A stretch of 64,000 nt of DNA from Saccostrea cucullata. Lineage: Eukaryota. Below the pieces are notes generated by a model, which saw nothing but the letters and a program-made list of their open reading frames with translations, made no database searches and had not been told where the DNA came from. Of this stretch, positions 1 to 42,200 are shown piece by piece (the stretch's first letter is position 1; each line of letters begins with the position of its first letter). Position numbers and translations under genes: made by a program. The stretch spans positions 62,001 through 126,000 of the forward strand of contig NW_026935164.1 in the NCBI RefSeq assembly GCF_032062105.1, written 5' to 3'.

Positions 1-3000
1 AGGAAATCCACCAGAACAACTAGACGGAGCAAGGTTAGGACTCATTTAATCATTGTCAGTCATATGTGGCATCTTACAAAATATCTTTGATACATAAAGT
101 ATTTAAAATATTTTGCTTTTTCTTTCAGAAGCCACCAACAGCAGGTAGTCATGGTGGACGGAAGAGGAAACAGACGGTAGGAGGACAATTTAAGGTGAGT
201 GTGCCTGATCATTTGTGGTTTGCATGTATGTAAATATACTGCAGATCACCCAATAGAGTTCTTGTAAATAAAAACTGATTTTCAAATATATATTAAGAAT
301 GTAGATTGCTGTCTTTTTGCACTATTGTTGTCTCACTGTTGTTTATAAATGTTAAGACCTCCCTGAGTATTCTGATGGAGAGAATGATGTCCTCATCCCC
401 AGTGTTTGTACGATGTCTGAAGCCAAATCATGTCAAAGTCCCAGGAAAGTTTGATGATAGCTACATACAAGACCAAGTAAGAACTGGATGCAGGCAATCA
501 ATGTTGACTTTGATTACTTAGCTTATTGGTATTGGTGCAATTTATAAACATTGTGTAGAAGAGTATCAAAATAACTGTAAATTTAAAAGTAAAGACCTAG
601 AAAAATGATATGAGAAGAAAAGAATTGCATCCTTAAAAGTTGAATTGCAAATCTGTCTATCTACGTTTTTGTACACTGGTATGTTTGCTTTAGTTATTGT
701 ACACTGGTATGTTGGAGACCATTAAGATTAGAAGAGAAGGGTTTGCAGTAAGGCCATCATTTGCAGAATTTGTAGAAAAGTTTGTATATTTTATTAATAT
801 TTTGAAATTCTTTTGTATCCAAGCACTGTCTTGTATTTTTTGTGAGTGAATATAAAATGCTGTCATAAGATTTAATGGTTTTAATTTTTTTTCATTACAG
901 ATACAAAATTATTGTATGTGAAGCAGCATTACCAGGGACAAAAGAAAATTGTTATAAAATTCTAAAGGCCAGCAAAATAGCTGGCTGGCAGATAGGGTAA
1001 TCTTCTTTCTAATTTTTTAAACAGTTAAGTCCAGCTTGAAAAATTCTTTGTTCTTAATTCTTAATTTTTTTAAGTGGATGGGTACTGGGGGACAGTTTTT
1101 TTTTTTTAAATATTGTAGTTTTCAAACTTTTGTTACAGAGCAAAAGTTATAAACATAATTGTATAAGCAATTAATTGATAAACCAAAAAAAAAACAGAAA
1201 ATGAAACAGCTTCAATATCCTAAAAGCTTGAAACCTTGAAAAAAAATACCCCAAAAAAGCTGAAAAAATTTAAGGTTGGTTGCATTTTCAGTGTTTTGTA
1301 GGTAACTGCAAACAAGTGAATTTAAATTTTTATTTTAGGCCTTAGGTTTATATGAATTATGCTTAGAATAATGTTCAGTAAAATGTCTTTCAAACGAGTT
1401 ACACATATTTATATGTTTAAGTGCAGTATTTTAAAAAAATTACATGTACCTTGATATTTCAATATCAAATTGGGTTTTTTTTTTTCATTTCAGCAAAACT
1501 AAGGTTTTCATGAAATACTTTCATTTAGAACAGCTTTCAGATGTTTTAAAAACAATGGGTGTTTCTGCCATAAAAATTCAGAAAGGTATGTAAAATATAT
1601 TTACATGTAATATAACTATGAGGTTCAGCTTTTAGATTTGATAAGAATTTAACAATAAAAAAAGAGTAAAGAGATAATGTGGCTGAGATCAATTATGCAT
1701 GAAGTGATTTTATTTCAGTGGTAAGGGGATTTATTGGTCGTCAGGAATACAAGCGAAGACTTGCTAAAGCTAAAAGTGAAGCAGAAAGATTAAAGCATTT
1801 GGCTGATGATATTTATAACCTTAACATTCATCTGTGTAATCAACTGCAGATAGCCAAACAAAATGATGATAATATTCCATCTAGTAAGTATGCTGCCAAT
1901 ACCTAGTGACATCTTAAATTACCCAACTGAAAAGAATGAAAATTGAGCTCTCTATCTCTCAAATTTTAAGAAAGGCTTAGTCAAAACTTGTAATAAAACA
2001 TCTATGCTTTTTATTGAAGATTTTTATTTATATATCTGTGATACAAATTTTATCCTCTACATGCATATATATATATATAAAATAAAGGGGAAAAAAGCTG
2101 CAAAATTGTGTGGTTTTTATTTTGATAATAAATGATTCAGATAAGACAGAACTGCAGTGATTGTCTTTTTACAAGGTTTCTTTGGTGTTCCTGATGGCTC
2201 TGACCTTCCACCAATCCCTGATTTCACTGATGTTCAGTCTGTACAGATGAGTACCAGGAGTTATGAAAAACCAGCACCAAAAAAGACTTTTCATGAAATG
2301 GGCACCCAGGTATGTGTTGTGAAATTGCTTTTAAACTTTTAAAATAAGGATACCTTGATTATACCCAACTCTGAAGGAGAGGGGTGTGTGCTATTTTACC
2401 CATGTAAATCTGTGTTTGTCTGTCCAAACAAATTTTTGTCACAGTTTTCTCAGCAACCACTTCTCCCAAATGCTTGAAATTGTAGCACATTCTTTGTTTC
2501 GGCATGCCATATGGTGAGATTCATTTTTATATGAATCCATTGTCAGCTTCCTGTTGTCTGTCTGAACGAAATTTCTGTCCCAGTTTTCTCAGCAACTACT
2601 TGAAATTTCAGCACACTTTTTGTTTAGGCATTGGGTATGGTGGGTTTCAAACTTGTAAGTACCCAATGTTAACTTCCTGTTTGTCTGTAATTCTGTCTAA
2701 ACCAAATATTTCTGTGAAAGTTTTCTCAGCAACAACTCATCTCAGATACATAAAGTTTAAGCAGTGATACACTCTTTGTTTTGGCATTCCATATGTTTGG
2801 ATTTTTTATGTCAACATCTGATGTTTATATACCTGTTTATCTCTTCTTCTGTCCAAACAGTGTATATTCACTTAAGACTGGTAGTATTACTAGTGAGCAT
2901 CCACTGGTTCACAGACCTCTTGTTTAAAGTGTTCCGAATAGGAACTGAAATAAATGTAAAAAAGATTATTTTATATTTTTGAAAAAGAAAAAAAGTGTTG

Positions 3001-6000
3001 AGACTAAATGCAAGAATATTTAATTCATGTACATGTATTCAGGCCTTTTTGTTAAGAAATGTGTTGAGAGGGAGATTCCTATTAAACATTAAATTTACTT
3101 TTTCAATTATTTTTAGAGAAGAGGATCCAAAAGGTCACTTAACTTACTGTTTATTGTTTCAAGCTCTTTTCTTTTTTTTTTTTTACATTTTTTATTTGCC
3201 TTAAACTCCTGAAAATTTTGCTTATTTTGTTTTGATAGTTATGATGAGGAACATACTAACTGAATTTTATCAAAATTAATTTACTTGGCCTCATTTTGTT
3301 AAAGGGCTTTAAAATCTTTTGTGCTTTGCATGTTCATTATAGTATACACAAATTACATCCTTTGAATATTTCGTTTTTTTCCTTTATTTTTTTTAAAACA
3401 ATCAGAACAATTTTCCTTTAAACCTGTAAGATCTTTCTTATATTTATCTGTATTACTCCACATAAGTAAAGTCATGTATGTAAAGGGTCGACAGATTCAT
3501 TATAGGTTCCTCCATCTTTGTAATGTATTAGATCAATGCATTATCTAGTACATTTACACCCACTTGAGTTGAATAATATCTCAAGTATGTGTAACTTCAA
3601 CTCCATGGATATGTTGAAACAAGTATGAAGTCCAAACTATTTTTTTCATTGACTAATTAATTCAACATCAATATTTCATATCCTCAGATGTCTTGAAATT
3701 TCTCTTCAGGCCCATTAAATTCAATTAAGATAATGCAATTTGACCCTTATTTTGATATATGTATGGTTCATTTAAAGGCGGAAGTTAGCTCCTCAGATTC
3801 AGAGTTTTCAGAGGATGAATTCAAGCCTGTGTCCTCCCACAATTTTGGTACCCCAGGGACCAGGATGGCCACGGTGCGATGGTTCAAAGAGACCCAGACT
3901 CATCAGGTCTATGATCCTATCAATGTCAGCGGAAATTTTATTGCAGAGTGGTTCCATGGTGTCATTAGTCGCAGGTAATTCAATCAAGTTCTGCAAAGAG
4001 GGTATTATAATATTGTAATATTGTAGATTACTAATTTTTCCTGCCACCTTATTTTTGTGATATGGTCATTTACTCTTAATTACGAGACAAATTTTGACAA
4101 ATGTGTTTTCTTTAGAAATGTGTATATACGTGAGAATTTCATATTATCACTGTCTTGCTTAACTGCATGAAAATAAAATTCTCATGAATAAAAATATATT
4201 TAGAGTAGTTAAGGAGATGTACACATTTTAATTCCAACTAAATACCTGTAGAGAGACATGCTAGAAAATATCATTTGAATTCCTTGAATATACATGCAGT
4301 GAAACTATCTAATCTGGATGTTGGGTAATCTGAAATCTTGTCTATTACAATGATAACTCTCTGTCCTTTTGAGTAAGTTAGCTGTTTAAAATCTAGAGTT
4401 TTGTCTAATCGAGTCAATTTCTATAAAATGATGGTTTTCTGATTAGAAAAGTTTCCCTGTATAAAGCATTAACCGATATACAGGTACTACAAAAGCAGAT
4501 CAATGAACAAAAGGTGGCAAAAAATTCTTTCATAATAAATAATTCTTTCGTGATAAAACCTGTATTTTTCATGTAATAGTGTTTAGTTTTTTAACATAAA
4601 TGAGTTATTTGGATGCTTTAAATTACAATTAAAAGAAATGATTCTCCTGTTCCAACATATTGAAAATAATGCGAGGTTCATGTATGATAATCTCAGTGAT
4701 CTTGTATGTAGGGGTAAATCTGCATATATTGAAGAATGGTAGGGCCACGATGACTCAGATAAGCATTATGATCCATGGTTCGGGTCTCTTGTATTGGATT
4801 TAAACATTTTACAAATCCTATTTGTACTTTTAGAGAGTCAGAAACCTTGTTAAAAGGAAAACCAAGAGGCTGTTACCTTATTCGAGTCAGCGAAAGCAGA
4901 TTTGGTTACACATTATCTTTTAGGTAAATCAGAGTTTTTATGAATGGATTTTGTAAATTGAAGGTGTATACATTACTTTGATTTGTAAAAGGTAGCGTAT
5001 ATCATTTGCTCCTTTTTGCATATATCCATACACCAGTGAGTCCTCCAAGCTTAATTACTACAACTGTATGCTCTGATTCAATTAATGGTGAAATGAACAT
5101 TGATAATTGAAAACAAAATGAAAAACAAAATTAATTACTTTTGCTCCTGTATTCAGTGGGGGAGATCGAACAAGACATTACATGATTGATCAGCTTCCAA
5201 ACAAGAAGTATATAATTATTGGGGAACCTAAGGTCCACAGAAATCTGAAGGATCTGGTGGAATATCATAAAAACGTAAGATACAATTTCATCTTTCTCTC
5301 CAAGCTATTATTTCACAACAATATATTATACTCATGTTCCTTGGATTATTTTTTTTTTCATTTTTATAGGTTAAGATATCCAACTGGAATGGTTACCTTA
5401 CAGAACCATGTGGGCAGGTAAAATATTGACATTTTTAAAAGGATTCTTTGAAAATTAAGGAAGGATGACAACATTTATGATATACTAAACAAATAACAAT
5501 GATTAAAATAGCTAAAAATAAAATTTATTTATTTTTCATAAGATATGTCTATTTTACTGCAGGAACATGGTGTGTGTGACTACCAGGAATTGGTCGGAGA
5601 CAATATGTACTTCAAACTGGAAGAAAACTCCCAGGTAAAACATAGAGACTATCTTTATTGTCTTAATGTAAAAACATCATTATACTTGTATACAATTTTC
5701 TTAACTTATGATTGTGCTATGAATGATTTATTCAAAGTAACAATATTTACAGAATAAATCTAGTCATCAAGCTACAAGAAATCCACAGAGAGTAAGATTT
5801 TAGAATTCTTGTTTTCTGCATGATGGTCACTATTTAAAAAAATTATAACCCATAATGCAAATTTTGAAATTAACTTATAAAAAATACTTTAAAACTTTTT
5901 CTGGTTTAAAGTCTGATAAAGATAAGTATTTGTATTAATAAATTATTAAATTAACATTTTAACTCACTGAAGAGAATATTTTGGTTGTCTGTTTTGAAAT

Positions 6001-7674
6001 CAACATGTTGTGTTTTAGCACCTGACTCGTCCTTATGTGTGAGTCATTCTTCCTGTCACATCAAAAATGCATCCTATAATAACCCAGATGTACCCTGTTT
6101 TGCATGAAATACATGTGTAATGAGTCTACTTGCATTCTGTGTACAAATTTCAAATGTTTATCGAAGCCATGCATTTAGATCTGAAACTGGGTTTATCAGT
6201 ATATCAATTATGAAATCATTTAACCTATCTTTAATTACCAGACTACAATATGATGGCTAATGTACTCTGAACAAAAAAACTTGGAATGGCAAGCAGAATT
6301 TCATAATCAGTAATTATTTCTATTAAAAGTGTATGAACTGTTTGGTTACATTTTTAGCTGCAACCAAGTATATTAAATTTAAGCATGTTTTATGTGTATG
6401 TAATTAGTAATGTAGGCTACAAAATTTATATTACTGTAATATCACATATTTTCGTGGGGCCAAATTTTCGGGTTTGAGGAAAAATTGTTGGTTCATTTTG
6501 ATTTCGTGGATGAAGAACGTTTTAGTAGTTTTGCATATGAAAATTTACATTTCATGGTGGGCATGAATTCGTGGGTCTCTTCATACCTCGAAAACAACGA
6601 AGATTAAACCCCCCGCGAAAATTATTGATTTGACCATATATTCTGTATTCATATTATTTGTTTTCATAGTTACATGTACTAGCTATTGAAAAGCTAGTTT
6701 ATTAAAAACACTCATTTTTGCCCACCCTTAGAGCAGAATGCAAGAGTAACACTGTTATGTCATTTTTTGTTTAAATTTTTATGTTTTTTGTTTTGGTTTC
6801 ATTGCTAACGACTACCGTTTAAGGGGCTTTTGTTTGTTGAAGTTACAAACTAAGCATTCAATGCTTGAGCATGGCCATGTTTTTTTTATTTCACAACAAT
6901 GAATTTAAGAAGTGCATAGAGCCTATTAAATATTTACTAATACTTTCCTGATACAAAGAAATTTGATTATGTTGAAGTATTAAAAATGTTTTTAGATAGA
7001 TATTCACAAAGATTATTTCTTCTTTGATCATTTTTTATTTCATTTTCTATAGTTTTTGCATTCTCGGAGTATCATACGTTGAGACATCAAAACTTCAATA
7101 TTAATTTTTAAAGTGTGTTATCAGATGCTAATTAATATGATTACAGAGGGGTGCATCTCGCACAAACCGAGTCCAAGAAAATCAGACCAGCAATAGTCAA
7201 GTGACTTCAAATGACTCAGCCCCTCCAGTTCCAGAGCGCAGTTACTCTATGGCTAAACCTGTTCAACCACAGGCTTCGGTTATGAGTAACCGCCCCCTTC
7301 CTAGGAGACCTGATGAGGCATATCAAAGGCTTCTTAAAAATCAGGTACAGTAAAAGTTACTATCCTTCCAAGTTTATATTCCCCATATTTTTTTTTTGTC
7401 TTCAGAAATGTGGAAATAAGATCTAAAAATATTATGAAATAGATTAAAACAAGTCATTCCCTCTAAAGATACTACTGTATGATAATTCATAGGAATAATT
7501 TTATCTTGGCTAAAGTTGTTGGTTGATATCTTGTCACTACAGGTGCTTGCATGTGAAGGATTTGGGACTATTGATCAGTAAATCCATTATAAGACGTTCA
7601 ATTTGCCATTATTTCCTCATTTGTTGATTCTTATCTCTTGTCATTTACAGACCAAACAGCATGAGTATCACTGA
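1..7674 (+). CDS. Unconventional myosin with IQ and SH2 tail (myosin III/XXVIII-like), 5'-partial, 15 exons in window
   Basis: Exons 1-33, 129-194, 357-476, 694-779, 901-996, 1494-1585, 1719-1883, 2176-2309, 3778-3974, 4834-4923, 5157-5274, 5370-5417, 5563-5634, 7147-7344, 7651-7674. All introns are GT-AG with matching phases. Motor motifs QTVGGQFKTSL, FVRCLKPN, LLYTGMLETIKIRREGF, GKTKVFMKYFH; IQ motif IQKVVRGFIGR; SH2 WFHGVISR..YLIRVSES..PCGQ; stop TGA at 7672-7674. Confidence 0.9.
129..194 (+). CDS. Myosin exon (loop 2, KPPTAGSHGGRKRKQTVGGQFK)
   Basis: ttcag acceptor, gtgagt donor, phase 0-0. Confidence 0.85.
357..476 (+). CDS. Myosin motor exon (TSLSILMERMMSSSPVFVRCLKPN...IQDQ)
   Basis: Myosin FVRCxKPN motif; gtaaga donor. 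Confidence 0.9.
694..779 (+). CDS. Myosin motor exon (LLYTGMLETIKIRREGFAVRPSFAEFVE)
   Basis: SH1-helix motif; phase 0-2. Confidence 0.9.
901..996 (+). CDS. Myosin converter exon (YKIIVCEAAL...GWQIG)
   Basis: acag acceptor, gtaatc donor, phase 2-2. Confidence 0.88.
1494..1585 (+). CDS. Myosin converter/neck exon (KTKVFMKYFH...AIKIQK)
   Basis: GKTKVF motif; gtatgt donor. Confidence 0.9.
1719..1883 (+). CDS. Myosin IQ/short helical tail exon
   Basis: Completes IQxxxRGxxxR; gtaagt donor. Confidence 0.88.
2176..2309 (+). CDS. Myosin tail linker exon (FFGVPDGSDLPPIPDF...MGTQ)
   Basis: Phase 1-0, gtatgt donor, open frame. Confidence 0.78.
2355..2925 (+). mobile_element. Helentron-associated (HINE/pearl-like) non-autonomous element with ~140-bp internal tandem repeats
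   Basis: Starts with attataccc and a tgtctgtcc tract; repeat core (c/a)agttttctcagcaac recurs near 2442, 2582, 2718. Confidence 0.55.
3778..3974 (+). CDS. Myosin tail exon, SH2 N-terminus (VRWFKETQ...IAEWFHGVISR)
   Basis: WFHG SH2 start; gtaatt donor. Confidence 0.85.
4298..4459. mobile_element. Degenerate MITE (Tc1/pogo-like)
   Basis: cagtgaaactatctaatc ... gattagaaaagtttccctg imperfect TIRs. Confidence 0.4.
4834..4923 (+). CDS. SH2 core exon (ESETLLKGKPRGCYLIRVSESRFGYTLSF)
   Basis: FLVRES-equivalent YLIRVSES with the pTyr-binding Arg. Confidence 0.9.
   Translation, partial: RVRNLVKRKTKRLLPYSSQRKQIWLHIIF
5157..5274 (+). CDS. SH2 exon (GGDRTRHYMIDQLPNKKY...LVEYHKN)
   Basis: SH2 betaD to alphaB; canonical splice sites. 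Confidence 0.9.
5370..5417 (+). CDS. SH2 C-terminal exon (VKISNWNGYLTEPCGQ)
   Basis: 48 nt, phase 0-0. Confidence 0.85.
5563..5634 (+). CDS. Post-SH2 exon (EHGVCDYQELVGDNMYFKLEENSQ)
   Basis: 72 nt, phase 0-0. Confidence 0.82.
6433..6640. mobile_element. Degenerate MITE (tactgt...ttttcgtgg family)
   Basis: Imperfect TIRs attttcgtgggg / ccccgcgaaaat; repeated ttcgtgg. Confidence 0.4.
7147..7344 (+). CDS. Proline-rich tail exon (…APPVPERSY…RPLPRRPDEAYQRLLKNQ)
   Basis: 198 nt open, ttacag acceptor, gtacag donor. Confidence 0.8.
7651..7674 (+). CDS. Terminal myosin exon (TKQHEYH*)
   Basis: tttacag acceptor then in-frame TGA. Confidence 0.65.
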   Translation, partial: TKQHEYH

Positions 7675-7835
7675 AGAAATGGCAAAAAACTTTCGTGATC
7701 ATACTTCATTTCTCATTAAGGACCTTGGACGATTTAAACAACAGATATGATAAACCTTACTGTACCATATCACAGATCCATGACATATTAAATTAGTTCT
7801 TTATTTAGTCTTATGTTTGGTACAGATATATAGAG

Positions 7836-8443
7836 AATAATACATACCCTTTTCCATATCACATCCTGTATCAGCCCGAGACACCAATATCAGCCAGAGG
7901 GAAAAAGGCCCGAAGGGCTGATATTACGAGGGCTTATACAGGATGTGATGTGGAAAAGGGTATGTTTTATTATATTTATTACATACTTAGTAATAAAATA
8001 CAGTTGAGAAGAAAATAAGTAAATAATCATGCATGGACTTCTTACATACATGTACATAGTCTAATGTCTCATAAGATTTGGGTTTGTTTCTATTTCTATT
8101 TCAATGCACTTGATCCGTAATTTGAAAATATTCTATAGTATTACATGTATTTGTAAATTAAGATTAACCTTAATTTCAAAAAGTTAAAATTAAGAGAATA
8201 TGAACCCACCAAAAATTGTGTATGAGTACAAGTACTGTTATTGTGGTTTAATTTACTAAGGGTGTGATATTGACGTCACAATAGCCGTATCAGCCCTGCA
8301 GGGCTGATATGGATTTGCAGGGCTGATACGGATATCAGCCCCGCAAATCCATATCAGCCCTGCAGGGTTGATACGGCTATTGTGACGTCAGCCATATCGC
8401 ATATGCAAAAAACCTGTATTTATTACTAAGTGTGTAATAAATA
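7836..8443. mobile_element. Compound palindromic non-autonomous element just downstream of the myosin stop
   Basis: Hairpin 7836-7971; inverted repeats 7974-8002 / 8414-8443; internal 120-bp near-perfect palindrome 8271-8390; shared tatcagccc motif. Confidence 0.7.
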
Positions 8444-20000: not shown

Positions 20001-23000
20001 ACAGAGCATGTGGGACAAAGCTTTAAATAACGCCCATGTGTACTGTGTAAACCATGAAGCATGCTGAAATAAATTAAAATACAGACTTAACAAAACGGAA
20101 CAGTATGTATATTTTTTTCATTAGTCGGAATGAATACTAAAGGAATCGTTCTGGTTATTCTTTCCAAATAAAATGGACTTTTGAATGAATTTAGAACTAA
20201 AGAAAAAATTGTCTGATGATTAGGAAATTCAGATTTAATGTTCATGAGTAATACTTGATTTTGAGGTTAAAAAAAACATGAATAATATCTGATAATGTCT
20301 TTCTCTTAAAAATACATATATGTTCTTATTACTTTGAAACTGAGATAGGTTTCGAGAAATGCTGTACGCAGCGAGGTGTTAAAAATATTCTGACATACTC
20401 CCCCCCTTCGCACACAATTATTTGAATCTCTCTTGTATATCTGGCAGCCTGTGGTTTTACCCATTAATCTTTTATTTGTAAACTCCACCACAACGTTGCT
20501 ATTTTGATGCTTCATTAAATATGAATACCATTAGAGATTTTAGACTTTCATTGTTACAATTCTTGTTGCTTTTTGGCTTCGATGCATCGACTTTCCTTTT
20601 TTAAGAGTGTTGAACAAAGCTCCAAAGTCAGTTATACAAACGGCAAACTTTTAGTGTATTTTATTTCTGGTTTCTAAGATATGAGTTTACCTTTAGTTCT
20701 TCAATGGAAACCCAGCAGTCTTTTGGGAAGTCTTCTAACATTGGCACTAAGAACTGCAGACACCCATTCCAATGACCGAGTAGTAGCATGAGACATATCA
20801 GATTAAAGATCCGCATAAATTTCCCAGCTACAGCAAGAAACTGAAAAAGTACAAATAGACAAGTTTCTAGTAGATCGTGATTTGCGTGTATTTATTTCTA
20901 AAAATGTTAACATTTTAGACAAATGTATATATTACATAATCATTCATCTTGTAGTTCAGCTTAATAAAAGACTGGGGAGGGAAGTGGAAAATGACAGCAG
21001 GGGTCAAAAGGTAATTGAGTTTTTTGGAGAATTCTGCATTATATGAAGCAAATTTGCTGAAAAAGAGACTCTCAACAGAGTAAAAAAAATAGAAAGCAGT
21101 GATAAAGGATGCAGTGAACCGAGAACTGCAAAAGCAGGTGCTGAAAATGCATGTAACATAACACTGGAATGACATTGTCATCTCTTAATCATGTTTATCA
21201 TTCTTCCAATTATTTTAAGGAATATTTTTTTAAGAAATGAAAAATAAGAAATTTAAAAAATTTTATGCATGATTGTATTACCGTATATACAACAAAGACA
21301 GGTATAGAAACAACAAACTGAAGCGAAACACAGAGCATGCCACATACAATAGCCAGCACATGCCAATGGTGAACTGGTTTTCACAGTTCAGATCAGAGTA
21401 TACTTCTAGTTGTCATCATTCAGAAGACAATCATTCAACATACTATGAAAGAGATCACTTTTTACAAAGTCATTTTGAATCCAACGTGCATTTCTAAAGA
21501 AATTATTTCTTGGTGCACTATAAAGTCCAACTCCGACAAAAAAGGCCTAGATGATTTCATCCAATCAGAGACTGCCTTCAACTCACCCCAGGTCGTTTTC
21601 GGCGTCCAAACATACTCAAACAAGGACAGGCTTCAAACTAATCGGAAATAAATCATGAGTACAAACAGGTTATGCTTAAATCCAAATAAGGATGTTAAAT
21701 GCAAGAAATTAAACGCTTTGCGCTGTAGACTTAGTAGAAATAAAGACATGGGGAGAAACCGTACTCAAAATAAAAGAAAACAGAAAGGCTAAATATAATC
21801 GTCAGTTCTTGTGTAGTAGGGTTATGACACACGTGTTGGTACGCATGATGTTTAATGGAATATTACAATGTTTGTGTTTATTAATCTATAGGATTTCCTA
21901 TAATAGTGACTACTATGCGATTGCTTTAGTTTGGTCACATGTATTGCTCCACAACTTTTATGTCGCTAAGGATATATATATTGATACTTGAAAGCACAAA
22001 ACTCACCTTCTTAGTTTTTAACAGCTGGAAAGCCAAATAAAAAGACATATTTGTAAGATTTGGGATTCTACACAGTTATACAATGAAGAACGACAAACTT
22101 TGTTTTTTTAACACGGCGCAATTGCAAAATATCAACAGTTGTGATACACTATTTAGTAATGGACTTTTGAAAGGAGCGCTGACTTTTACACTTGACGGCT
22201 TAATTTTACACATTAAGACAATGTACAGAAATTTTTTATATAAATTTGTAGCTCAACATTTAATTAAACGAAAATATCGGGTTATTTCAAAAGCACAAAT
22301 AAGTTGCCCTTGAAGAAAATGACATCCACACTACCCTCAACTCCCGGCATTAACATGTTCCCAAAACACCATACCTATTACCACTAGACATTTTTCTGAT
22401 CTATTATCTATTCTGTACCTACGTAGATGATATAGGTTTAAATGTCAAAGTAAACCGTCATCTGTAAAAGTCAGAGCTTCTCGCAGAAGTTCAGTACTTA
22501 CTGTATAACTAAGTGTTGCCTATTTTATGAATACAATTCCTCAATTTTTTATTAAGAGAAAACACATCGATTACGTACGAAGTATAACACATTATACAAC
22601 GTTTATAATTACAAAAGGTAGGGTGCACATTTGGAAAATTTGGGAATAAAAACTCTTTAAAATGACATGATTGGTTGTATTTAGGTACGTGGTATCGCTT
22701 TTATACCATTACCATGCATCCACAACAATGCACACGAACTGAGCCCAATTTTTAAGTTTAATACACTCATGCAAAATAGGAATATTTGCGAAAACCAGTT
22801 AGTATTTACAAAACTGTATTCAACACTTCCCTCCCACTTTACATCAAAGTAATCAGTAGATAATTTATTGGAAAAATATAATTTATGAACTGTTGTAATG
22901 CTAATGAAGACAAAAATTGAGACAATGCAGACGACAGAATGACGTTTTACTTTAGATTCTTACCTCTTCCCACTGTTGTACGTATCGCACCAAACGGGAC

Positions 23001-26000
23001 AACCGCAGCAATCGTAAGAGACTCAGCAGCTTTGCCAACCGTAAAATCCTCAACGCCCTTCCTACAATTAAAACATCATGGTTACTTATCAGATACTATA
23101 ATTGTTTTTCTTATTGCCCTAACAACACTTTTGATTGTTTTATCAACATATTTGTATTTTTTTTTTATTTCTTTATTTAACACCATTATGTAATATCAAG
23201 TCCATGTCAGTATATGCTAATGTATATTTTAAATCTAAGATAGAAAATTAAAACAAAAATATGCAGATCATGCTTCAGAACGTTTGATACAACAATGTTT
23301 TAATGCAGTATTTGATGATGTATTTCGAAATGACAAGAAATTGCAGATGATAATATTTCATAGATTTGCATGATTTTGTAAATGTTTTTGAGATCCATTA
23401 CTGTTTGTTTATTTCAACCTCTTTTTCATGTAAAGCCCCAAGCGTTGGAATAGAAAAATTTCTCCTAAATAAAAAGTACGCTCCTAATCATTTGAATTCC
23501 AAAGTGAGAGGATGCATGTTTAACATTTATCTTTATATTCCTGAGAAATGGTATGTATAAATAACTTAAGAAGATGGGGGAACAAGGCGGGCAGAATGCC
23601 TATAGCGTCATATATTAAAAGATCGTATGCAATATGTGAATTGAGTAAATAAATTAACTTCTAATTATTGAAGTTTTAGAAATTATGAGAAAAAAACTTT
23701 CTGAGAGAAAAAAAAAATATTGTAAAAAAATTTCTTTCTTAAAATTAGGCCTATTTGATGATATTCGTGGGACTCGAACCCTAGGAATAAAAATCCGTCG
23801 TATCAATAGCATACTGCTTTGAGACTAACGCGTTAACCACTATGCTACATCACTCCTGCTGATTTCGGGCATTTAAATCATGTTTGTGATATGACCTTCG
23901 ACTTAATGGACTTCAAGTATTTCTTTGAAAGATGCAAATGTTGTGTCATAAAAGTGTACTTTTAAGGTATTGTGGGTCTTCGCTCCATGTTTTTGTAAAC
24001 CAAAAAATGTGTATTTTACTGCAAACTTTTAGGATCATCTTTCAGAAAAATGGAGCGAAGACCCACTCATATTGAAAAACCTTGTTAAAGTATGAGAAAA
24101 TGATCGTTTTTGTTCTTTTTAGTGTGTGTAATCTTTTTCATAGGCAAATAATTTCAGTCTTTGTGAGATTTTTGTAAATTGTAGAGATTTTACATAAAGT
24201 AAACTTTAATATTAGATGAAATATCAAATAAAATTTAGTTTAAATTGAGATTAAATTTTTCACTTCTTATCTGTCGCACTATAGGCACTTCGCCCGCCTT
24301 ATCCCCCCATCTTCTTTACTAAAATGAAAAAATAGGAAGATGCTTTTTAGAAGGGATTTCTTGGGAATTTTTTTTTCTGCGAAAGCACTTCAAACAAAAA
24401 CTTTATACAAATTTACTTGTGTGTGTGTGTGTGTCCATCTATATAAAATATGTAAAAACCCTATCAAACTAACAGTAAATGCCAAGATTTAAAACACACA
24501 AACTTGTAGATGTGTAAAAATAAACACTGGTAATTATATGTACATCAATTGCAATCACATATTGATAAATCAGGATGTATTTAATTGATTACATTAGAAT
24601 AGTTAAATGTATAGCACCTCGTGTCAAGTACAAAATTCCCTCGTATTGATTTCCCTTGAAAATCTTAGAGGGTCATATATTTTATGCTTTTTATGGAACA
24701 GATGTAGATAACGAACAGTATTCAAGATCAAAACTCCATAAAACAATACAAAATAGGAGCAGAGCAAACACAGACCTCCAAAACATCAGAGGTGGGATCA
24801 GGTGCCATGGAGGAGTGAGCATCCCCTGCCAAACGGTCACTCCCGCCGTGCGCTTTTTGTCATGATCGGGAAATTACGGGAAAATCCGTCGTCGATTCAG
24901 TGTATAAATTATGGACTAACGATAAATATGTAAAACATTAGTCAGCATTTGACTCAATAATAAATTGTATTTGCTGACAAGGTAATAGAATTTACGAAAT
25001 TATTACTTTAAACGAGACTGCTGATATCCGTGTTTCATCAACTTGTTTATCAATAATTTACCTCGTTTTTAGAAATTGTTCATACGTAGAGCATGCTCTG
25101 GCGTATCGAATCAACTGAGATCTATAAATTCCGTATGCAGGTGATGAAGGTATACTGCATAAGTAAGAGAAGTTGACGATTAAAAAGTTAAAGTCACCTC
25201 GTTTATCATAGAGCTTGGTTGTTAGATTACCATTAACGTTTTTATCAAGTAAAATATCCAAATATCAATATCAAATCAACATATAATATCATACCCGGTA
25301 TTGATAAAATAAATGATTCTAGAAAGTCCTAAATATTCACAAGTTCAAAAAATTATACCAATTCACAAAATACAACCTTTCACTAGAGAATGAAGATATA
25401 ATTTATAAAAAAAAAAAATAATAATATTGACAGTAGAAATTGTGGTCACAACATCGATAAAAAAAATATATACTCCAGCATGCAGAGAAAGTGAAGTGAA
25501 GTGAAACATTCAACAATTTCATCCTTTTATCTTTCATTTTATGTAGCACATTACATATACACGAACACACAATAGTTATATATATTAAACACCGACAAAG
25601 GCCCTGAAGGAAACCTCGGTGCTTAGAACAAAATCACTTACAAAGCTCTTCCTTCCATTCGTTTTAATTACTATAACCTCCTAGGATATCCAAGGCGACC
25701 ATTCTCAATAATTTCTCAGCTTATATAAAAAATTTCTATTAAATGTTGCAATGGTATACAAAAGGTCTTAAGCATACAGAATGTCAACAAATTAATCGAA
25801 TTTTTTTAAAAAGTTTTATAAATTAAAAAAAAAGAGGGAGATGAAAGTAGATTTTATCTTTTGGGATGAAAACATTTGCTTTATAACAAAGAGGTTCATA
25901 TTCAAAAGAGTTTGAAATTACAAAAGTTGATCATTTTAAAATAAGTATCCTCTATCGTCAATAAACCTCAGCGTTAGTGCACACAAAGCAATAAACATTC

Positions 26001-27126
26001 TGAAGTTTTATAGCAGCAATTTCAACAAAGACAAGCCTTCATCGGATTAGAGGTAAATGCTTAAGAGTAGCAATCAAAATTCCTGTTTAGGTATGCATGT
26101 ATATGATATATTTTTACAAAAGGCATTTATTATTTTGTTTGCACGGTTTTCTTAGGAACAGAGAACCCTTTTTATCTTTCTTTATGCAACACACATGACA
26201 GTTCCCAAAACAATTTTCGAAGGATGTACCAAGCTATCTGAGGAAGACTTGTAAAATTACAAACCCCGAGGAAAGCTGATACAATTACGTGAAAAGGTTA
26301 AATAAAGGCAGGACAAACAAAAAAAAGTAACGTGATATAAGAGAGAGAATTATGGGAATGATCACCTTGCCAATAAGAGCCGGCATCCACTCGCGAGCTC
26401 GTACCTGCATGGATCATTTGGTAAAAGTCGGCCTCGGCATCCCACCAGAGAAAAATATAATCCATTGGAATACTACTGATGAGATCAAGGAAAAACCAAG
26501 ACTTAACATAATGCTTGGCTATCAACTTAGGATCTAAAATGATTTCGTCTGCGAAGTCATTCAATATTATACCTGTAATTTAATAAAAAGTTGAACAATT
26601 ACACAATATACATGTACATGTATATTAAATCAAAATAAAACTCTTAAGATTTCAGATTCAATTGGCCAGTTGAGTTTTATTCCTGATCTAACTACCTTTA
26701 GATAATTGTTAATTTGTATGTTAATTTAGTCAAATATTGGCCTTTATTTAACCATATGTGACATTGAAGTATTTCTCTTAAAATTTGCTTCTTTGAAAAT
26801 CTTAATCATGGATTTTAATTTGTTATCATACACAAGTTAAATTTAGAGATAACGCTCAATTCATATAATTATTTTTGTCCTGGCCTACTGTTCATGGGGA
26901 AGAAAATGTATTTCAACTAAACAAATAAACAAAAAAAAATTAAATAAGAAAAGAGTTTCTTATTTGACAAAAAATAGTCTTCACCATTATTTCGAAGGAA
27001 AATTCTGAGATTGCTTACACGTATATTCAAGATGGCAGAGGATCAAAACCCAGCGAGGAGCAAATTCCGGGAAATTACTTTCGAAAATATACGAAGTGCG
27101 AGATCTAAATAAAGGACAATGTACAC

Positions 27127-33200: not shown

Positions 33201-36200
33201 CTCACACACATAAGAAATTTACAGAAAATGTAATTATATATTGTAAAACTATGTATTAGAATCTGTAAATAAAAAAATAGAAGGCAATTTAGTGAGTAAA
33301 TAATGGTTCAACGATAGTGCAAAGAACGTCATTCAGTATTTGACTTAATGATATATTGTATTTGCTGAGGTATGTATTGTATCGACCATGGAACTTACAA
33401 AATGACCACTTTAAACGAGACTGCTGGAATTTTAGTTTGATCTACTTGTTTGCCAATAGCACCTAGTTTTTGAAACGTTGTGTGCAGGTGTTAAGGGTAT
33501 ACTGCTGCATAAGGGAAATGGACGAATGAAAAGTTAAAGACATCGTTTATCAAACTTCGTTGTTAGATTACCGGTACCATTAACGTCTTTTTCTCGTAAA
33601 ATATCTAAATATGATACAGATGTGTCAGACTCTGTGTTATCTTTTATTTTAAGCTCACTGAGATATATTGAGTCCACATAGGAATAGAAATAACTATTGT
33701 TAATTGACAATATATCGTTGATATATATCTAAATGTTGATTTGAATGTCACAGCAAGTTTCACGTAAAGGATTTTGAACAAATTTTGCTTCATACGACAT
33801 AAATTACAAAAATATGCTTTTAACGGGGCGCAATAGGTACACACGGGGATTCCAACAGGTTGTTGAAAGACCTCAACCCAGGCTCATGAAACAGGTGTAG
33901 ACATAAGTCAAATTTTGATCGCCTGTAAAATGCATATTAAATACAAAATTAATCTCTTTTTTTTTTTTAAAGAACAGCACTTTTGTGAATCAATATTGAA
34001 ACTTATTTTTAATTTTTGATCCGCTTAACTTCACTGATAGAAAAACCTAGTTGAATAGTGTACCTAGTAAAGCGTTCTTCATGATTAGTAATCACTCTGT
34101 TTACTAGCTAAGATAGTGGAAAGTGGAGTAGTGGTCGTAAAGATACTTAGATACCTAGTGAATGTTACTTATAAACTCTAGATTTACTAGTGTTGTGTAG
34201 TAAAAATACCCAATACCTAGTAAAACTACTTTTGAGGTAGTGATTGTATGGACAGTAAATTTACTAGTCTTCTTAGTGACTTTCACTTGTTATTTTTTTT
34301 CAGTGTTCCACAACATTTTAGTACATGGATATTTTGACTCAAGTTTAAAATGCTTCATGATCTTTGTACCTGGTCTCCAAAAACCAGATAAATTTTGTCA
34401 ATCAGAAACTCGAGCATCTTCTTAATATCAACTTCAGAGTACTTGTGTGTACAAGTGTGTGAAAGGAGTTAAAGTGACTACAAATAAAGGACTGCATCCC
34501 TTAGCAAAGCCATCTTTTTTTTTTAACTTGATATATAGCTAACTTCTTCACAAAACATTCTTTTCTGACAAATATACATAGATACATGTGTTTATAACGT
34601 CAATGTAGATTATAAAACACATTTTTCAAATCGTATTAAACTAAAGAAGACCAGAGCAATGCTCTATTCACTGCTGCCTTATGTCTTGTTTAAACTGATT
34701 CTAACTTACACTTTGAATTGATCAAGGGAGATAATGTGTTTTGATTTTAAATGACAATGCCATTAATAGGTATGTTATAAATTAGTAGAGATTACAGGGT
34801 TTCTTTGTTTCTGTCCGTCCTTCTGTCTATTTGTACGTTGTTCTGTCTGTCTCTGTGTCAGTCTGTCCCGCAGCTTTTTTCTTAACGTTTGTAGATCTTT
34901 AGGGCGTTCAGATTTTAGAACGCAGTTCGCAGTTCGCTATTCGCAATTCAAAAGTGAATTGCGTTCTAGAACGCAGTTCGCAATTCAAAATTTAAACATA
35001 AGCTGTGTGGTCTGAAATTTTGGGGGTGGGGTACTAGGGGCCAGATATCACTTCTATGAAAAAATGGTGATGGTACCATCTCTAGTTTCCGAGATATGGT
35101 CCTCTAGTTTTTAGCCCTACTATATAATACTAAACGAATAAACATCGGGCTCGGGGACATCGAAGTCCCCTACCCTGGGGTCTGAAATTTTGGGGTTAGG
35201 GTACTAGGGGCCAGATATCACTTCTATGAAAAAATGGTGATGGTAACCATCTCTAGTGTCCGAGATATGGTCCTCTAGTTTTTAGCCCTACTATATAATA
35301 TTAAACGAATAAACATCGGGCTCGGGGACATCGAAGTCCCCTACCCTGGGGTCTGAAATTTTGGGGGTGGGGTACTAGGGGCCAGATATCACTTCTATGA
35401 AAAAATGGTGATGGTACCACCTCTAGTTTCCGAGATATGGTCCTCTAGTTTTTAGCCCTACTATATAATACTAAACGAATAAACATCGGGCTCGGGGACA
35501 TCGAAGTCCCCTACCCTGGGGTCTGAAATTTTGGGGGTGGGGTACTAGGGGCCAGATATCACTTCTATGAAAAAATGGTGATGGTACCATTTCTAGTGTC
35601 CGAGATATGGTCCTCTAGTTTTTAGCCCTACTATATAATATTAAACGAATAAACATCGGGCTCGGGGACATCGAAGTCCCCTACCCTGGGGTCTGAAATT
35701 TTGGGGGTGGGGTACTAGGGGCCAGATATCACTTCTATGAAAAAATGGTGATGGTACCATCTCTAGTGTCCGAGATATGGTCCTCTAGTTTTTAGCCCTA
35801 CTATATAATATGAAACGAATAAACATCGGGCTCGGGGACATCGAAGTCCCCTACCCTGGGGTCTGAAATTTTGGGGGTGGGGTACTAGGGGCCAGATATT
35901 ACTTCTATGAAAAAATGGTGATGGTACCACCTCTAGTTTCCGAGATATGGTCCTCTAGTTTTTAGCCCTACTATATAATACTAAACGAATAAACATCGGG
36001 TTCGGGGACATCGAAGTCCCCTACCCTGGGGTCTGAAATTTTGGGGGTGGGGTACTAGGGGCCAGATATCACTTCTATGAAAAAATGGTGATGGTACCAT
36101 CTCTAGTTTCCGAGATATGGTCCTCTAGTTTTTAGCCCTACTATATAATATTAAACGAATAAACATCGGGCTCGGGGACATCGAAGTCCCCTACCCTGGG

Positions 36201-39200
36201 GTCTGAAATTTTGGAGGTGGGGTACTAGGGGCCAGATATCACTTCTATGAAAAAATGGTGATGGTACCACCTCTAGTTTCCGAGATATGGTCCTCTAGTT
36301 TTTAGCCCTACTATATAATACTAAACGAATAAACATCGGGCTCGGGGACATCGAAGTCCCCTACCCTGGGGTCTGAAATTTTGGGGGTGGGGTACTAGGG
36401 GCCAGATATCACTTCTATGAAAAAATGGTGATGGTACCATCTCTTGTTTCCGAGATATGCACCTCTAGTTTTTAGCCCTACTATATAATACTAAACGAAT
36501 AAACATCGGGCTCGGGGACATCGAAGTCCCCTACCCTGGGGTCTGAAATTTTTGAGGTGGGGTACTAGGGGCCAGATACCACTTCTATGAAAAAATGGTG
36601 ATGGTACCATCTCTTGTTTCCGAGATATGCACCTCTAGTTTTTAGCCCTACTATATAATACTAAACGAATAAACATCGGGCTCGGGGACATCGAGGTCCC
36701 CTACCCTGGGGTCTGAAATTTTGAGGGTGGGGTTCTAGGGGCCAGATACCACTTCTATGAAAAAATGGTGATGGTACCATCTCTTGTTTCCGAGATATGC
36801 ACCTCTAGTTTTTAGCCCTACTATATAATACTAAACGAATAAACATCGGGCTCGGGGACATCGAAGTCCCCTACCCTGGGGTCTGAAATTTTGGGGGTGG
36901 GGTACTAGGGGCCAGATATCACTTCTATGAAAAAATGGTGATGGTACCACCTCTAGTTTCCGAGATATGGTCCTCTAGTTTTTAGCCCTACTATATAATA
37001 CTAAACGAATAAACATCGGGCTCGGGGACATCGAAGTCCCCTACCCTGGGGTCTGAAATTTTGGGGGTGGGGTACTAGGGGCCAGATATCACTTCTATGA
37101 AAAAATGGTGATGGTACCACCTCTAGTTTCCGAGATATGGTCCTCTAGTTTTTAGCCCTACTATATAATACTAAACGAATAAACATCGGGCTCGGGGATA
37201 TCGAAGTCCCCTACCCTGGGATCTGAAATTTTGGGGGTGGGGTACTAGGGGCCAGATATCACTTCTATGAAAAAATGGTGATGGTACCATCTCTAGTTTC
37301 CGAGATATGGTCCTCTAGTTTTTAGCCCTACTATATAATATTAAACGAATAAACATCGGGCTCGGGGACATCGAAGTCCCCTACCCTGGGGTCTGAAATT
37401 TTGGGGGTGGGGTACTAGGGGCCAGATATCACTTCTATGAAAAAATGGTGATGGTACCATCTCTTGTTTCCGAGATATGCACCTCTAGTTTTTAGCCCTA
37501 CTATATAATACTAAACGAATAAACATCGGGCTCGGGGACATCGAAGTCCCCTACCCTGGGGTCTGAAATTTTGGGGGTGGGGTACTAGGGGCCAGATACC
37601 ACTTCTATGAAAAAATGGTGATGGTACCATCTCTTGTTTCCGAGATATGCACCTCTAGTTTTTAGCCCTACTATATAATACTAAACGAATAAACATCGGG
37701 CTCGGGGACATCGAGGTCCCCTACCCTGGGGTCTGAAATTTTGAGGGTGGGGTTCTAGGGGCCAGATACCACTTCTATGAAAAAATGGTGATGGTACCAT
37801 CTCTTGTTTCCGAGATATGCACCTCTAGTTTTTAGCCCTACTATATAATACTAAACGAATAAACATCGGGCTCGGGGACATCGAGGTCCCCTACCCTGGG
37901 GTCTGAAATTTTGGGGGTGGGGTACTAGGGGCCAGATATCACTTCTATGAAAAAATGGTGATGGTACCATCTCTTGTTTCCGAGATATGCACCTCTAGTT
38001 TTTAGCCCTACTATATAATACTAAACGAATAAACATCGGGCTCGGGGACATCGAAGTCCCCTACCCTGGGGTCTGAAATTTTGGGGGTGGGGTACTAGGG
38101 GCCAGATATCACTTCTATGAAAAAATGGTGATGGTACCACCTCTAGTTTCCGAGATATGGTGCTCTAGTTTTTAGCCCTACTGTATAATACTAAACGAAT
38201 AAACATCGGGCTCGGGGACATCGAAGTCCCCTACCCTGGGGTCTGAAATTTTGGGGGTGGGGTATTAGGGGCCAGATATCACTTCTATGAAAAAATGGTG
38301 ATGGTACCATCTCTAGTGTCCGAGATATGGTCCTCTAGTTTTTAGCCCTACTATATAATATTAAACGAATAAACATCGGGCTCGGGGACATCGAAGTCCC
38401 CTACCCTGGGGTCTGAAATTTTGGGGGTGGGGTACTAGGGGCCAGATATCACTTCTATGAAAAAATAGTGATGGTACCATCTCTAGTTTTTAGCCCTACT
38501 ATATAATATTAAACGAATAAACATCGGGCTCGGGGAGATATGGTCCTCTAGTTTTTAGCCCTACTATATAATACTAAACGAATAAACATCGGGCTCGGGG
38601 ACATCGAAGTCCCCAACCCTGGGATCTGAAATTTTGGGGGTGGGGTACTAGGGGCCAGATACCACGTCTATGAAAAAATGGTGATGGTACCATCTCTAGT
38701 TTCCGAGATATGGACCTCTAGTTTTTAGCCCTACTATATAATACTATACGAATAAACATCGGGCTCGGGGACATCGAAGTCCCCTACCCTGGGGTCTGAA
38801 ATTTTGGGGGTGGGGTACTAGGGGCCAGATATCACTTCTATGAAAAAATGGTGATGGTACCACCTCTAGTTTCCGAGATATGGTCCTCTAGTTTTTAGCC
38901 CTACTATATAATACTAAACGAATAAACATCGGGCTCGGGGACATCGAAGTCCCCTACCCTGGGGTCTGAAATTTTGGGGGTGGGGTACTAGGGGCCAGAT
39001 ATCACTTCTATGAAAAAATGGTGATGGTACCACCTCTAGTTTCCGAGATATGGTCCTCTAGTTTTTAGCCCTACTATATAATACTAAACGAATAAACATC
39101 GGGCTCGGGGACATCGAAGTCCCCTACCCTGGGGTCTGAAATTTTGGGGGTGGGGTACTAGGGGCCAGATATCACTTCTATGAAAAAATGGTGATGGTAC

Positions 39201-42200
39201 CATCTCTAGTGTCCGAGATATGGTCCTCTAGTTTTTAGCCCTACTATATAATATTAAACGAATAAACATCGGGCTCGGGGACATCGAAGTCCCCTACCCT
39301 GGGGTCTGAAATTTTGGGGGTGGGGTACTAGGGGCCAGATATCACTTCTATGAAAAAATGGTGATGGTACCACCTCTAGTTTCCGAGATATGGTCCTCTA
39401 GTTTTTAGCCCTACTATATAATACTAAACGAATAAACATCGGGCTCGGGGACATCGAAGTCCCCTACACTGGGGTCTGAAATTTTGGGGGTGGGGTACTA
39501 GGGGCCAGATATCACTTCTATGAAAAAATGGTGATGGTACCACCTCTAGTTTCCGAGATATGGTGCTCTAGTTTTTAGCCCTACTGTATAATACTAAACG
39601 AATAAACATCGGGCTCGGGGACATCGAAGTCCCCTACCCTGGGGTCTGAAATTTTGGGGGTGGGGTATTAGGGGCCAGATATCACTTCTATGAAAAAATG
39701 GTGATGGTACCATCTCTAGTGTCCGAGATATGGTCCTCTAGTTTTTAGCCCTACTATATAATGTTAAACGAATAAACATCGGGCTCGGGGACATCGAAGT
39801 CCCCTACCCTGGGGTCTGAAATTTTGGGGGTGGGGTACTAGGGGCCAGATATCACTTCTATGAAAAAATGGTGATGGTACCACCTCTAGTTTCCGAGATA
39901 TGGTCCTCTAGTTTTTAGCCCTACTATATAATATTAAACGAATAAACATCGGGCTCGGGGACATCGAAGTCCCCTACCCTGGGGTCTGATATTTTGGAGG
40001 TGGGGTACTAGGGGCCAGATATCACTTCTATGAAAAAATGGTGATGGTACCACCTCTAGTTTCCGAGATATGGTCCTCTAGTTTTTAGCCCTACTATATA
40101 ATACTAAACGAATAAACATCGGGCTCGATATGTGGAATACATATTCTTCATTTCTATAAATAGCAGGCAAACCCTTTCTTGTCATTCGTCTCTTAGGGGA
40201 AAACCCCCTGGATTTTATACGAAACTATGTTTAGCTTACATATGTAATGCCTGTAAATAATTAATCGCATTATCTGTGTATTTACATCAGAAATTGGAAA
40301 AAAAAAAATTCGAGTTTATTTCCCGATTATTTTGATTTTTTTATTTCTATTTCAATAAATATAATATTAATCACTTCTGAAATTTCATTTCAACTTTAGT
40401 CATTTCGGAATTATATTTTTTTTTTACAAAAATATGTCAACTAAAATATAACAACTAAAAAACAGATTACATGTACATGTGTGTAATTTAGTAATTGGGG
40501 TTTTGGGGGTTTACCATTTTAATAAGAAACCAGCAATCAAAAAAAGGGGGGAGAGTTACAGAGGAAGAATTTAAAAATAATTAAAATGGAAGAGGATATC
40601 CAATATTTAGAGGATATCTATGGAAAGTTGTAAATATTTCATTATCAACTTTTGTTTGATATTACAGCAGAACTCGGTTATAACGAAGTCACATGGGCCT
40701 ATGAAATTATTTCGCTATATCCATAATTCGTTATAACCGTATAAGAAAGTCATTAAATTCATATGGATGGGGATCCAAGATGACTTCGCTATATCCGTAA
40801 ATTCGCTATATCCGTGTTCGTACTAGACGAGTTTTGCTGTATACTGATATTGCCCTTTCATGATGTTTATCCATAAATATAGTTGTGTATATAGACTTCA
40901 CAGAAATGCAAAATACTCTTTTTTGTGGAGTCGATATATCTATGGATTGATTGTATGAAAGGACTACCCGGTACGTTTGTTAACTTCTTACCTAAGAAAA
41001 ATAATTTGTATAAGCCATAAGTTTTCTCTTTCATCTTTTTATCCCCCTAAAGAAAGTTTTGAGGTGTATATACGAATTAACTTGTCCGTCTAGCTGCCTG
41101 TCCGTCTGTATATAGCTGTCTGGTTGCATGCGCAAACGGGTCCGGTCCACATATATCTTTTGATGAAACTTAAGAATTTACTTCTCCCTACAAAAATTGC
41201 TCATGACCTAAGGATGTGCCATGACCTTAACCTACGGTCATTTTGTCAAGTTCAAGGTCACTGGAAGAAACTTTTTCATAAATCGTGTCCGGCCCATATC
41301 TTAGGATACACTTAGTGAGTTCCCATTTTACACTAAGATTGCTTATGACCTGAGGGAGGTTGTGCCATGACTTGGCTTAAGTACATTTGTGCAAATTCAA
41401 GTTCAACTTTAAGAAAATGTTCATAATTATCTTTCCTATGCAAAAAACCTGAATTTTCCGCTTTACACAAAGATTGCTTATGACTTGACGGTGTGTCATG
41501 ACCTTGATTCAAATTATTTTGTGCAAGTTCAATGTGACTAAAAGAAAAAGTGCATAATTTGTGGTCTAGTCCATATCCAACTTATGGATAAATTTGGTGG
41601 GTTTTTTCTTTTATACAAAGATTGCAAATGCCTTGAGGGTTTGACTTGATCTTTATTCAATGTTTTTTGTGCACGTTCAATGTCCTAGGAAGAAAATAGA
41701 AATATGTCCATAGGACATAAATGCCCCGCCGAAGGTATACCGGGGTATTAGTAAGGCAACATGAAAATTTGCATGAAATTTGTTCAGAATATCTTGAAAA
41801 GTGATGCAGTTGAATTACTTACATCAGTATGTATCAGCATATGAAGTTTCAGAAAAGTGGGGTCAAGGTCAAATGAAAGGTCATGGTCAAAAACTTGTGA
41901 TACAGTTGAACAGCTCTCATCCGTATGTATCAGCATATAAAGTTTCAAAAACATTATGAATGGTTTCTTTAAAATTGACATGAACACAATTTGATAAAAA
42001 TGAGGTCCAGGTCAAATGAAATGTCAAAGTCAAAATGTTGATGTAGTGAAATGCTTACATCAGTATGTATCTGCATATTAAGTTTGACACTAATTTTGGA
42101 AAAGTGAGGTCAAAGGAAAAGTCAAGGTCAAAATTGTTGATGCAGTTGAATAGTTCTCATCAGTATATGAAATTTGATAAAATATCTTGGATGGTTTCTT

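What the first reader, a model, noticed from the sequence alone, without database searches (positions are those of the whole stretch)
20936..22024. Cluster of frame-preserving candidate microexons in the HCN S4-S5 linker intron
The phase-0 intron between QQWEE and FLAVAGK contains four stop-free 3n segments with AG/GT boundaries. These are 22007-22024 (LLKTKK, strong acceptor, gtgagt), 21587-21637 ([17 protein letters not shown], gtgagt), 20936-20971 ([12 protein letters not shown], strong ttttccacttccctccccag acceptor, weaker gtaata) and 21282-21317 ([12 protein letters not shown], weakest). Known: the S4-S5 linker couples voltage sensing to gating, and arthropod Ih genes (Drosophila, Apis, Panulirus) are alternatively spliced there. 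Inference: a combinatorial splice cassette tunes voltage dependence from a single gene. Such exons are often missed by annotation.
Basis: partly seen in the sequence, partly recalled or inferred. Interest (0 to 1): 0.7.

Follow-up and report, generated by a model that had tools for sequence, protein, structure and literature searches.

The report
Optional exons in oyster pacemaker channel
An oyster pacemaker (HCN) ion-channel gene has one optional mini-exon seen spliced in RNA and already annotated, plus a second, likely real one that is conserved in other oysters; both add basic residues to the voltage-sensor linker and likely tune gating, as recalled for bees and lobsters, while two further candidate exons remain unproven.

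Summary
All four segments are present as described, in the phase-0 intron after QQWEE of an oyster HCN/Ih gene (minus strand). B (51 nt, 21587-21637) is a real cassette exon: both joints are seen in contigs of 3 of 8 runs laid, skipping in 2 of 8. It is already in RefSeq isoforms identical to the window and is conserved in oysters, scallops and mussels (F...PC....GRR..PG). A (18 nt, 22007-22024) is very likely real: LLKSKK sits at this junction in 14 of 24 isoforms from two other oysters, and depth in one run fits one S4-A-B read. It is missing from the 6 isoforms identical to the window. C and D (36 nt each) have no RNA cover and no protein match among 318 junctions. Their acceptors are still unusually good and resemble neuron-specific (eMIC-type) exons, so they are open (about 25% each), not refuted. 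Four forms (skip, A, B, A+B) are annotated in other oysters. A gating effect is inferred, not tested. Optional inserts at this junction are common in arthropod Ih proteins, so this is a bivalve member of a known kind.

The parts
22964..23061 (-). Constitutive S4 exon, ends RYVQQWEE; strong donor GAG|GTAAGA
   Evidence: 100% match to RefSeq P0123; RNA joints at 22964
20841..22963 (-). Phase-0 intron in the S4-S5 linker (2123 nt)
   Evidence: GT..AG; skipped whole in the X1 contig and one X7 read
22007..22024 (-). Microexon A, 18 nt, LLKTKK (net +3); very likely real; absent from the 6 RefSeq isoforms identical to the window
   Evidence: Top-scoring candidate of 105; LLKSKK at the same junction in 14 of 24 isoforms of two other oyster sets; X9 depth equals 18 nt in its bin
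21587..21637 (-). Cassette exon B, 51 nt, [17 protein letters not shown] (Cys plus polybasic); real, alternatively spliced, already annotated
   Evidence: Both joints at exact coordinates in contigs of X2, X4, X6, no mismatch in 51 nt; in P0121-P0123, P0128; conserved in oysters, scallops, mussels
21282..21317 (-). Candidate C, 36 nt, [12 protein letters not shown]; unproven
   Evidence: Good acceptor (54-nt AG-free zone, UGC at -20), weak donor ACG|GTAATA; no cover in 8 of 8 runs; in no protein
20936..20971 (-). Candidate D, 36 nt, [12 protein letters not shown]; unproven
   Evidence: Good acceptor (60-nt AG-free zone, UGC at -28, branch-point-like motif at -36), poor donor TAT|GTAATA; no cover in 8 of 8 runs; no homologous insert
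20691..20840 (-). Constitutive S5 exon, starts FLAVAGK
   Evidence: 100% match to P0123; one match in own genome; RNA joints at 20840

Best explanation
The intron holds one exon (B, 51 nt) that RNA shows to be either included or skipped and a second, likely real exon (A, 18 nt); together they likely give four HCN isoforms whose S4-S5 linker is 0, 6, 17 or 23 residues longer and more basic, which is predicted to shift voltage and cAMP gating. SHOWN: the inserts fall right after the QWE(E) motif at the end of S4; the skip form has a linker 4 residues shorter than human HCN1; B keeps an invariant Cys and a GRR..PG basic run across oysters, scallops and mussels. INFERRED: the longer, basic loop weakens the closed-state S4/S5 contacts and changes contact with the neighbouring C-linker and acidic lipids, moving activation to less negative voltages; the Cys of B may be S-acylated and tether the loop to the membrane. 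C and D are more likely unused than used.
For: B: both joints (20840/21587 and 21637/22964, CT..AC) in 3 of 4 contig runs (2 studies); full skip in X1 and one X7 read. B is in 21 of 36 oyster isoform proteins, 4 of 7 of one scallop cluster and 8 of 15 listed Mytilus proteins. A: LLKSKK in 5 of 8 and 9 of 16 isoforms of two oyster sets, with all four combinations; X9 depths equal exactly 18 and 46 nt in the A and B bins with the bins between empty; no candidate in 35.1 kb of other introns matches A's site scores. Position: alignment to HCN1; QWE stabilises the closed state (PMC7078272, passages); the S4-S5 linker contacts the C-linker and affects the cAMP response in HCN4 (PMC8294335, passages). 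Arthropod Ih proteins carry optional, mostly basic inserts at the same junction.
Against: No electrophysiology for any bivalve isoform. Cutting the S4-S5 linker does not prevent HCN gating (PMC7078272, passage), so inserts might matter little. A rests on one unlisted read inferred from depth plus RefSeq models of relatives; it is absent from 11 of 11 isoforms in the window's own cluster. B was not seen in one other scallop cluster (0 of 2), in Pinctada (0 of 1), or in heterodont bivalves and gastropods. The AlphaFold model is low-confidence (mean pLDDT 46; insert <50). Tissues of the runs are unknown. The direction of shift rests on recalled bee work.
Confidence: 0.68

Rival explanations
1. 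All four are real: C and/or D are neuron-restricted microexons of the eMIC/Srrm234 type, unseen because ganglia are rarely sequenced in oysters; the cassette could give up to 16 linker forms.
For: C and D have long AG-free zones (54, 60 nt), UGC near the acceptor, pyrimidine tracts of 12-14/15 and weak donors, as described for fly eMIC exons (PMC8797185, passage). Such acceptors occur 1 in 35.1 kb and 1 in 63.9 kb of control sequence (0.03-0.06 per intron length). RNA depth at this junction was only a few molecules or one contig per run. RefSeq also missed A in this lineage.
Against: No cover in 8 of 8 runs; absent from 36 of 36 oyster isoforms and all 318 readable junctions (best match 4 of 12) and from 146 further fragments. 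The strict thresholds were set after seeing the segments; the looser rule gives P about 0.1 for two extra hits. A model-free score expects 0.12-0.21 such segments per intron. D's donor scores far below real donors (matrix biased to annelid sites). C is almost wholly hydrophobic, unlike the other inserts.
Confidence: 0.22
2. A and B are spliced but act on trafficking, stability or membrane attachment (or are tolerated neutrally) rather than on voltage dependence.
For: Non-domain-swapped channels gate without a covalent S4-S5 link (PMC7078272, passage). Cys plus polybasic motifs control palmitoylation and channel properties in BK STREX (PMC3256903, abstract and outline).
Against: Conservation of 8 of 17 positions of B across seven variants argues against neutrality. 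The insert abuts the QWE gating motif. Recalled bee and lobster work found gating shifts for inserts here.
Confidence: 0.2
3. Only B is real in this species; A is a conserved but silent relic here.
For: 0 of 11 isoforms of the window's own cluster contain A; no listed joint in 8 runs.
Against: Best splice sites in the intron, 5 of 6 residues conserved with two other oysters, and exact 18-nt depth in X9.
Confidence: 0.07

Closest known systems
Arthropod Ih S4-S5 splice variants (Apis AMIH, Drosophila DmIh, Panulirus PIIH)
   Same: Same junction just after QWEE; optional in-frame inserts, singly or in tandem, mostly basic; skip and inclusion forms both annotated. DmIh is one gene with at least 12 isoforms (PMC3344876, passage). 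Panulirus splice-variant names were seen.
   Different: No sequence similarity between oyster and arthropod inserts (tblastn against the window intron, best E >= 0.1). Arthropods add VY before the insert. Oyster inserts are shorter and B has an invariant Cys. The gating effects in the primary papers are recalled; those papers were not held.
RefSeq isoforms of oyster, scallop and mussel HCN
   Same: B is identical to the insert in XP_062580044.1, -45.1, -46.1 and -48.1; A matches LLKSKK in XP_048736851-54.1 and XP_022331253 series.
   Different: A is not in the series identical to the window; C and D are in none.
BK channel STREX exon
   Same: Optional exon with cysteines beside a polybasic run, on the cytosolic side of a channel.
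   Different: Unrelated channel region (C-terminus); in STREX the basic run lies upstream of the cysteines (PMC3256903 abstract), in B downstream; acylation of B is untested.
eMIC/Srrm234-dependent neural microexons
   Same: Short, frame-preserving exons enriched in ion channels; C and D show the acceptor code.
   Different: A and B lack UGC near the acceptor and have strong donors; neural specificity unknown.

Membership tests
HCN/Ih channel | Ion_trans_N + Ion_trans + cNMP-binding domains, CIGYG pore | tested here: met
   Pfam hits on P0128; CIGYG in P0123; best PDB matches HCN1/HCN4, E about 1e-213
HCN/Ih channel | Opens on hyperpolarisation | not testable with these tools
   Needs voltage clamp
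Protostome Ih S4-S5 cassette splicing | Optional insert directly after QWEE | tested here: met
   intron at the same place in other loci
Protostome Ih S4-S5 cassette splicing | Both inclusion and skipping in transcripts | tested here: met
   B included in X2, X4, X6; skipped in X1, X7
Protostome Ih S4-S5 cassette splicing | Inserts homologous to the arthropod exons | tested here: not met
   No significant tblastn match: same site, different exons
Protostome Ih S4-S5 cassette splicing | Insert shifts activation voltage | not testable with these tools
   Recalled for Apis and Panulirus; not measured here
eMIC neural microexons | UGC near 3' splice site, long AG-free zone, weak donor: exons A and B | tested here: not met
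   No UGC within -35..-5, donors GTGAGT
eMIC neural microexons | Same code: candidates C and D | tested here: met
   AG-free 54/60 nt, UGC at -20/-28, donors GTAATA; being exons is not shown
eMIC neural microexons | Neuron-specific inclusion | not testable with these tools
   Run tissues are not given
STREX-like acylated insert | Cys next to polybasic run | tested here: met
   F...PC....GRR..PG invariant in 7 variants, net charge +3 to +4, 2-3 Cys
STREX-like acylated insert | S-acylation of the Cys | not testable with these tools
   Needs acyl-exchange assay

The most novel reading that the evidence does not exclude
The oyster HCN linker is a four-exon switchboard: A and B add charge, with B's invariant cysteine acylated to pin the S4-S5 loop to the membrane (a lipid switch placed inside the gating linker), while C and D are neuron-only microexons that every annotation has missed.
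Probability: 0.1. Interest if true: 0.6.

Novelty: new member of a known kind. Interest (0 to 1): 0.33.

Why it matters
It gives natural length and charge variants of the HCN S4-S5 linker (0, +6, +17, +23 residues) from one gene, a ready test set for how the sensor couples to the gate in hyperpolarisation-activated channels. It shows the post-QWEE intron as a splicing hotspot used with unrelated exons in arthropods, bivalves and a nemertean. It also adds one exon (A) to this oyster's annotation. The splicing principle is known and B is already in databases, so surprise is modest.

Tried and rejected
No cover of C or D in 8 of the 24 listed runs that were laid; contigs drop rare variants and raw reads gave only a few molecules, so this is weak. 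Read pile-ups at about 22140-22500 are 90-95%-alike repeat reads with loose ends, not exons. No relative oyster genome is held; 78 metagenome loci came from other animals (74-90% identity in S5), and the 13 introns compared share no conserved island with the window intron, so conservation of C and D could not be tested. The 50%-representative search returned mostly intron-flanked single-exon fragments; 1 of 146 had a readable junction. The region search with P0133 gave only 7 known oyster proteins; no Magallana isoform series was retrieved, only one protein. The splice matrix was trained mostly on those distant loci and penalises C-rich tracts, so a model-free score was added (its rows S1-2, S3 and S3long had wrong coordinates and were dropped, corrected). 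The AlphaFold model was too poor for a fold search. Considered and rejected: C as homologue of the Sinanodonta insert FLIAIPDKYADSGLRFPG (shares only F..IP; that insert ends in PG like B); C and D as tandem duplicates (no similarity by eye); C/D region as a repeat (one match in own genome). The primary bee, fly and lobster papers were not held. Earlier scan findings: none. The supplement of PMC8797185 (1 file held) gave no hit for three fly Ih gene identifiers; its tables may not all be held.

Full report
1. Observation. I call them A (22007-22024), B (21587-21637), C (21282-21317) and D (20936-20971). The bare criterion is weak: 116 segments up to 150 nt in this intron meet it.

2. The gene. 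It is an HCN/Ih channel: Ion_trans_N, Ion_trans and cNMP domains, closest solved structures HCN1 and HCN4, one S5 match in the own genome. Its exons run from about 56,380 to 16,070. RefSeq protein P0123 (XP_062580044.1) matches the window's exons residue for residue within exon bounds. The nearest relatives are oysters (Magallana is named; that the other series are Saccostrea, Ostrea edulis and Crassostrea virginica, and that clusters 4-5 are scallops, is recalled from accession series because the names were cut).

3. Exon B is real and already annotated. Of 24 runs listed I laid 8. Contigs of X2, X4 and X6 (two studies) join 22964 to 21637 and 21587 to 20840 with CT..AC ends and no mismatch in the 51 nt. 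The X1 contig and one X7 read skip the whole intron. X3 and X8 gave no joint. The runs differ from the window at 2-4 of 150 S5 bases, so they are the same or a very close species; tissues are not given. B is in 4 of 6 isoforms of the series identical to the window, 21 of 36 oyster isoform proteins in all (the count includes two annotation versions of one species), 4 of 7 proteins of one scallop cluster, 0 of 2 of another and 8 of 15 listed Mytilus proteins. Seven variants share F...PC....GRR..PG, net charge +3 to +4, with 2-3 cysteines.

4. Exon A is very likely real. It ranks first of 105 candidates by splice matrix, and none in 35.1 kb of the gene's other introns equals its sites. LLKSKK stands at the same junction in 5 of 8 and 9 of 16 isoforms of two other oyster sets, and each set has skip, A, B and A+B. 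In run X9 the depth is 0.20 in bin 21956-22046 and 0.51 in bin 21592-21682, with empty bins between; these equal exactly 18 and 46 bases and fit one 150-nt read spanning S4, A and most of B. The tool lists joints only from three reads, so this is an inference from one read. Against: 0 of 11 isoforms in the window's own cluster contain A. One scallop model has another 6-residue insert (VLFSHQ) before B.

5. C and D are unproven. They have no cover in 8 of 8 runs and appear in none of 318 proteins with a readable junction (best 4 of 12 identities) or 146 further fragments. Both donors are weak (GTAATA; D also lacks the -1 G). A model-free score expects 0.18 and 0.12 segments as good per intron of this length. 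Their acceptors are better than chance suggests: AG-free zones of 54 and 60 nt, UGC at -20 and -28, 12 and 14 of 15 pyrimidines. A loose rule picks exactly A-D against 0.54-0.56 expected (P about 0.1 for two extra); a strict rule picks A, C and D against 0.03-0.06. Both rules were set after seeing the segments. The features match those reported for fly eMIC-dependent neural exons (PMC8797185, passage), which non-neural RNA would miss. I put each at about 25%. No relative genome was available to test conservation.

6. How it likely works. Shown: the inserts go directly after QWEE; the skip form's linker is four residues shorter than that of HCN1; A adds 6 residues (+3), B 17 (+3), both 23 (+6). 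A low-confidence model places B (residues 453-469 of P0128) as a loop between S4 and S5 helices (pLDDT under 50 there). From papers: QWE stabilises the closed state, and cutting the linker does not stop gating (PMC7078272, passages); in HCN4 the linker contacts the neighbouring C-linker and contributes to the cAMP shift (PMC8294335, passages). Inferred: a longer, basic loop is tolerated because the channel does not need a tight covalent link, but it alters S4/S5 packing and contacts with the C-linker and acidic lipids, most likely easing opening. I recall a positive shift for the long S4-S5 insert of the honeybee channel and altered properties for lobster variants; those papers were not held, and I saw only the lobster and fly titles in reference lists. 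B's invariant cysteine beside a basic run suggests S-acylation as in BK STREX (PMC3256903, abstract and outline only); this is untested.

7. Comparison with what is known. Insect, crustacean, chelicerate and myriapod Ih proteins carry optional inserts of roughly 3-90 residues at this junction, as do a nemertean, Sinanodonta, a heterodont clam cluster and some gastropods. The oyster inserts show no sequence similarity to the arthropod ones: same site, separate exons. Searches of the held library (listings only) showed no paper on bivalve HCN linker splicing; subscription journals are not covered.

8. Verdict. This is a two-exon (possibly larger) alternative cassette in the S4-S5 linker of an oyster HCN channel, a new member of a known kind; B is in RefSeq, A is an annotation gap here, C and D await ganglion RNA. 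Interest 0.33.

Noticed in passing
window 26366-26404 (-): Alternative 5' donor extends the S3 exon by 39 nt, adding 13 residues ([13 protein letters not shown]) to the extracellular S3-S4 loop; an optional ...YWQ insert is annotated in oysters, scallops, mussels, clams and gastropods. A second splice switch next to the voltage sensor, and more widely conserved than A or B.
   Followed up: partly
proteins P0037, P0212, P0214, P0217, P0220-P0222: Snail HCN models (Bulinus, Biomphalaria cluster) contain two tandem copies of the S5 exon, probably mutually exclusive exons joined by gene prediction; arthropod-like fragments show tandem S5 copies too. The oyster has one.
   Followed up: no
window 35009-40127 and 45715-46654: Arrays of a 170-bp tandem repeat (about 30 and 5.5 copies, 91-97% matches) inside the 27-kb HCN intron.
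   Followed up: no
window about 22140-22500: Dispersed repeat inside the S4-S5 intron that collects 90-95%-alike RNA reads from other loci.
   Followed up: no
window about 690-7900 (+): Convergent neighbour gene with myosin-head and SH2 exon matches.
   Followed up: no
window 21587-21637 (-): B has Phe where all six other variants have a Cys before GRR; the RNA contigs carry the same letters as the window.
   Followed up: partly
L040:4545, L044:4576, L048:897, L067:3700: In some metagenome loci of other animals the donor after QWEE is GC, not GT; Haliotis-cluster and Lottia models add two residues (VG, VC) here by donor shift.
   Followed up: no
window beyond 56380: The alternative first exons of the RefSeq isoforms (three different N-termini) were not found in the window by tblastn for two of them; they probably lie upstream.
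   Followed up: no
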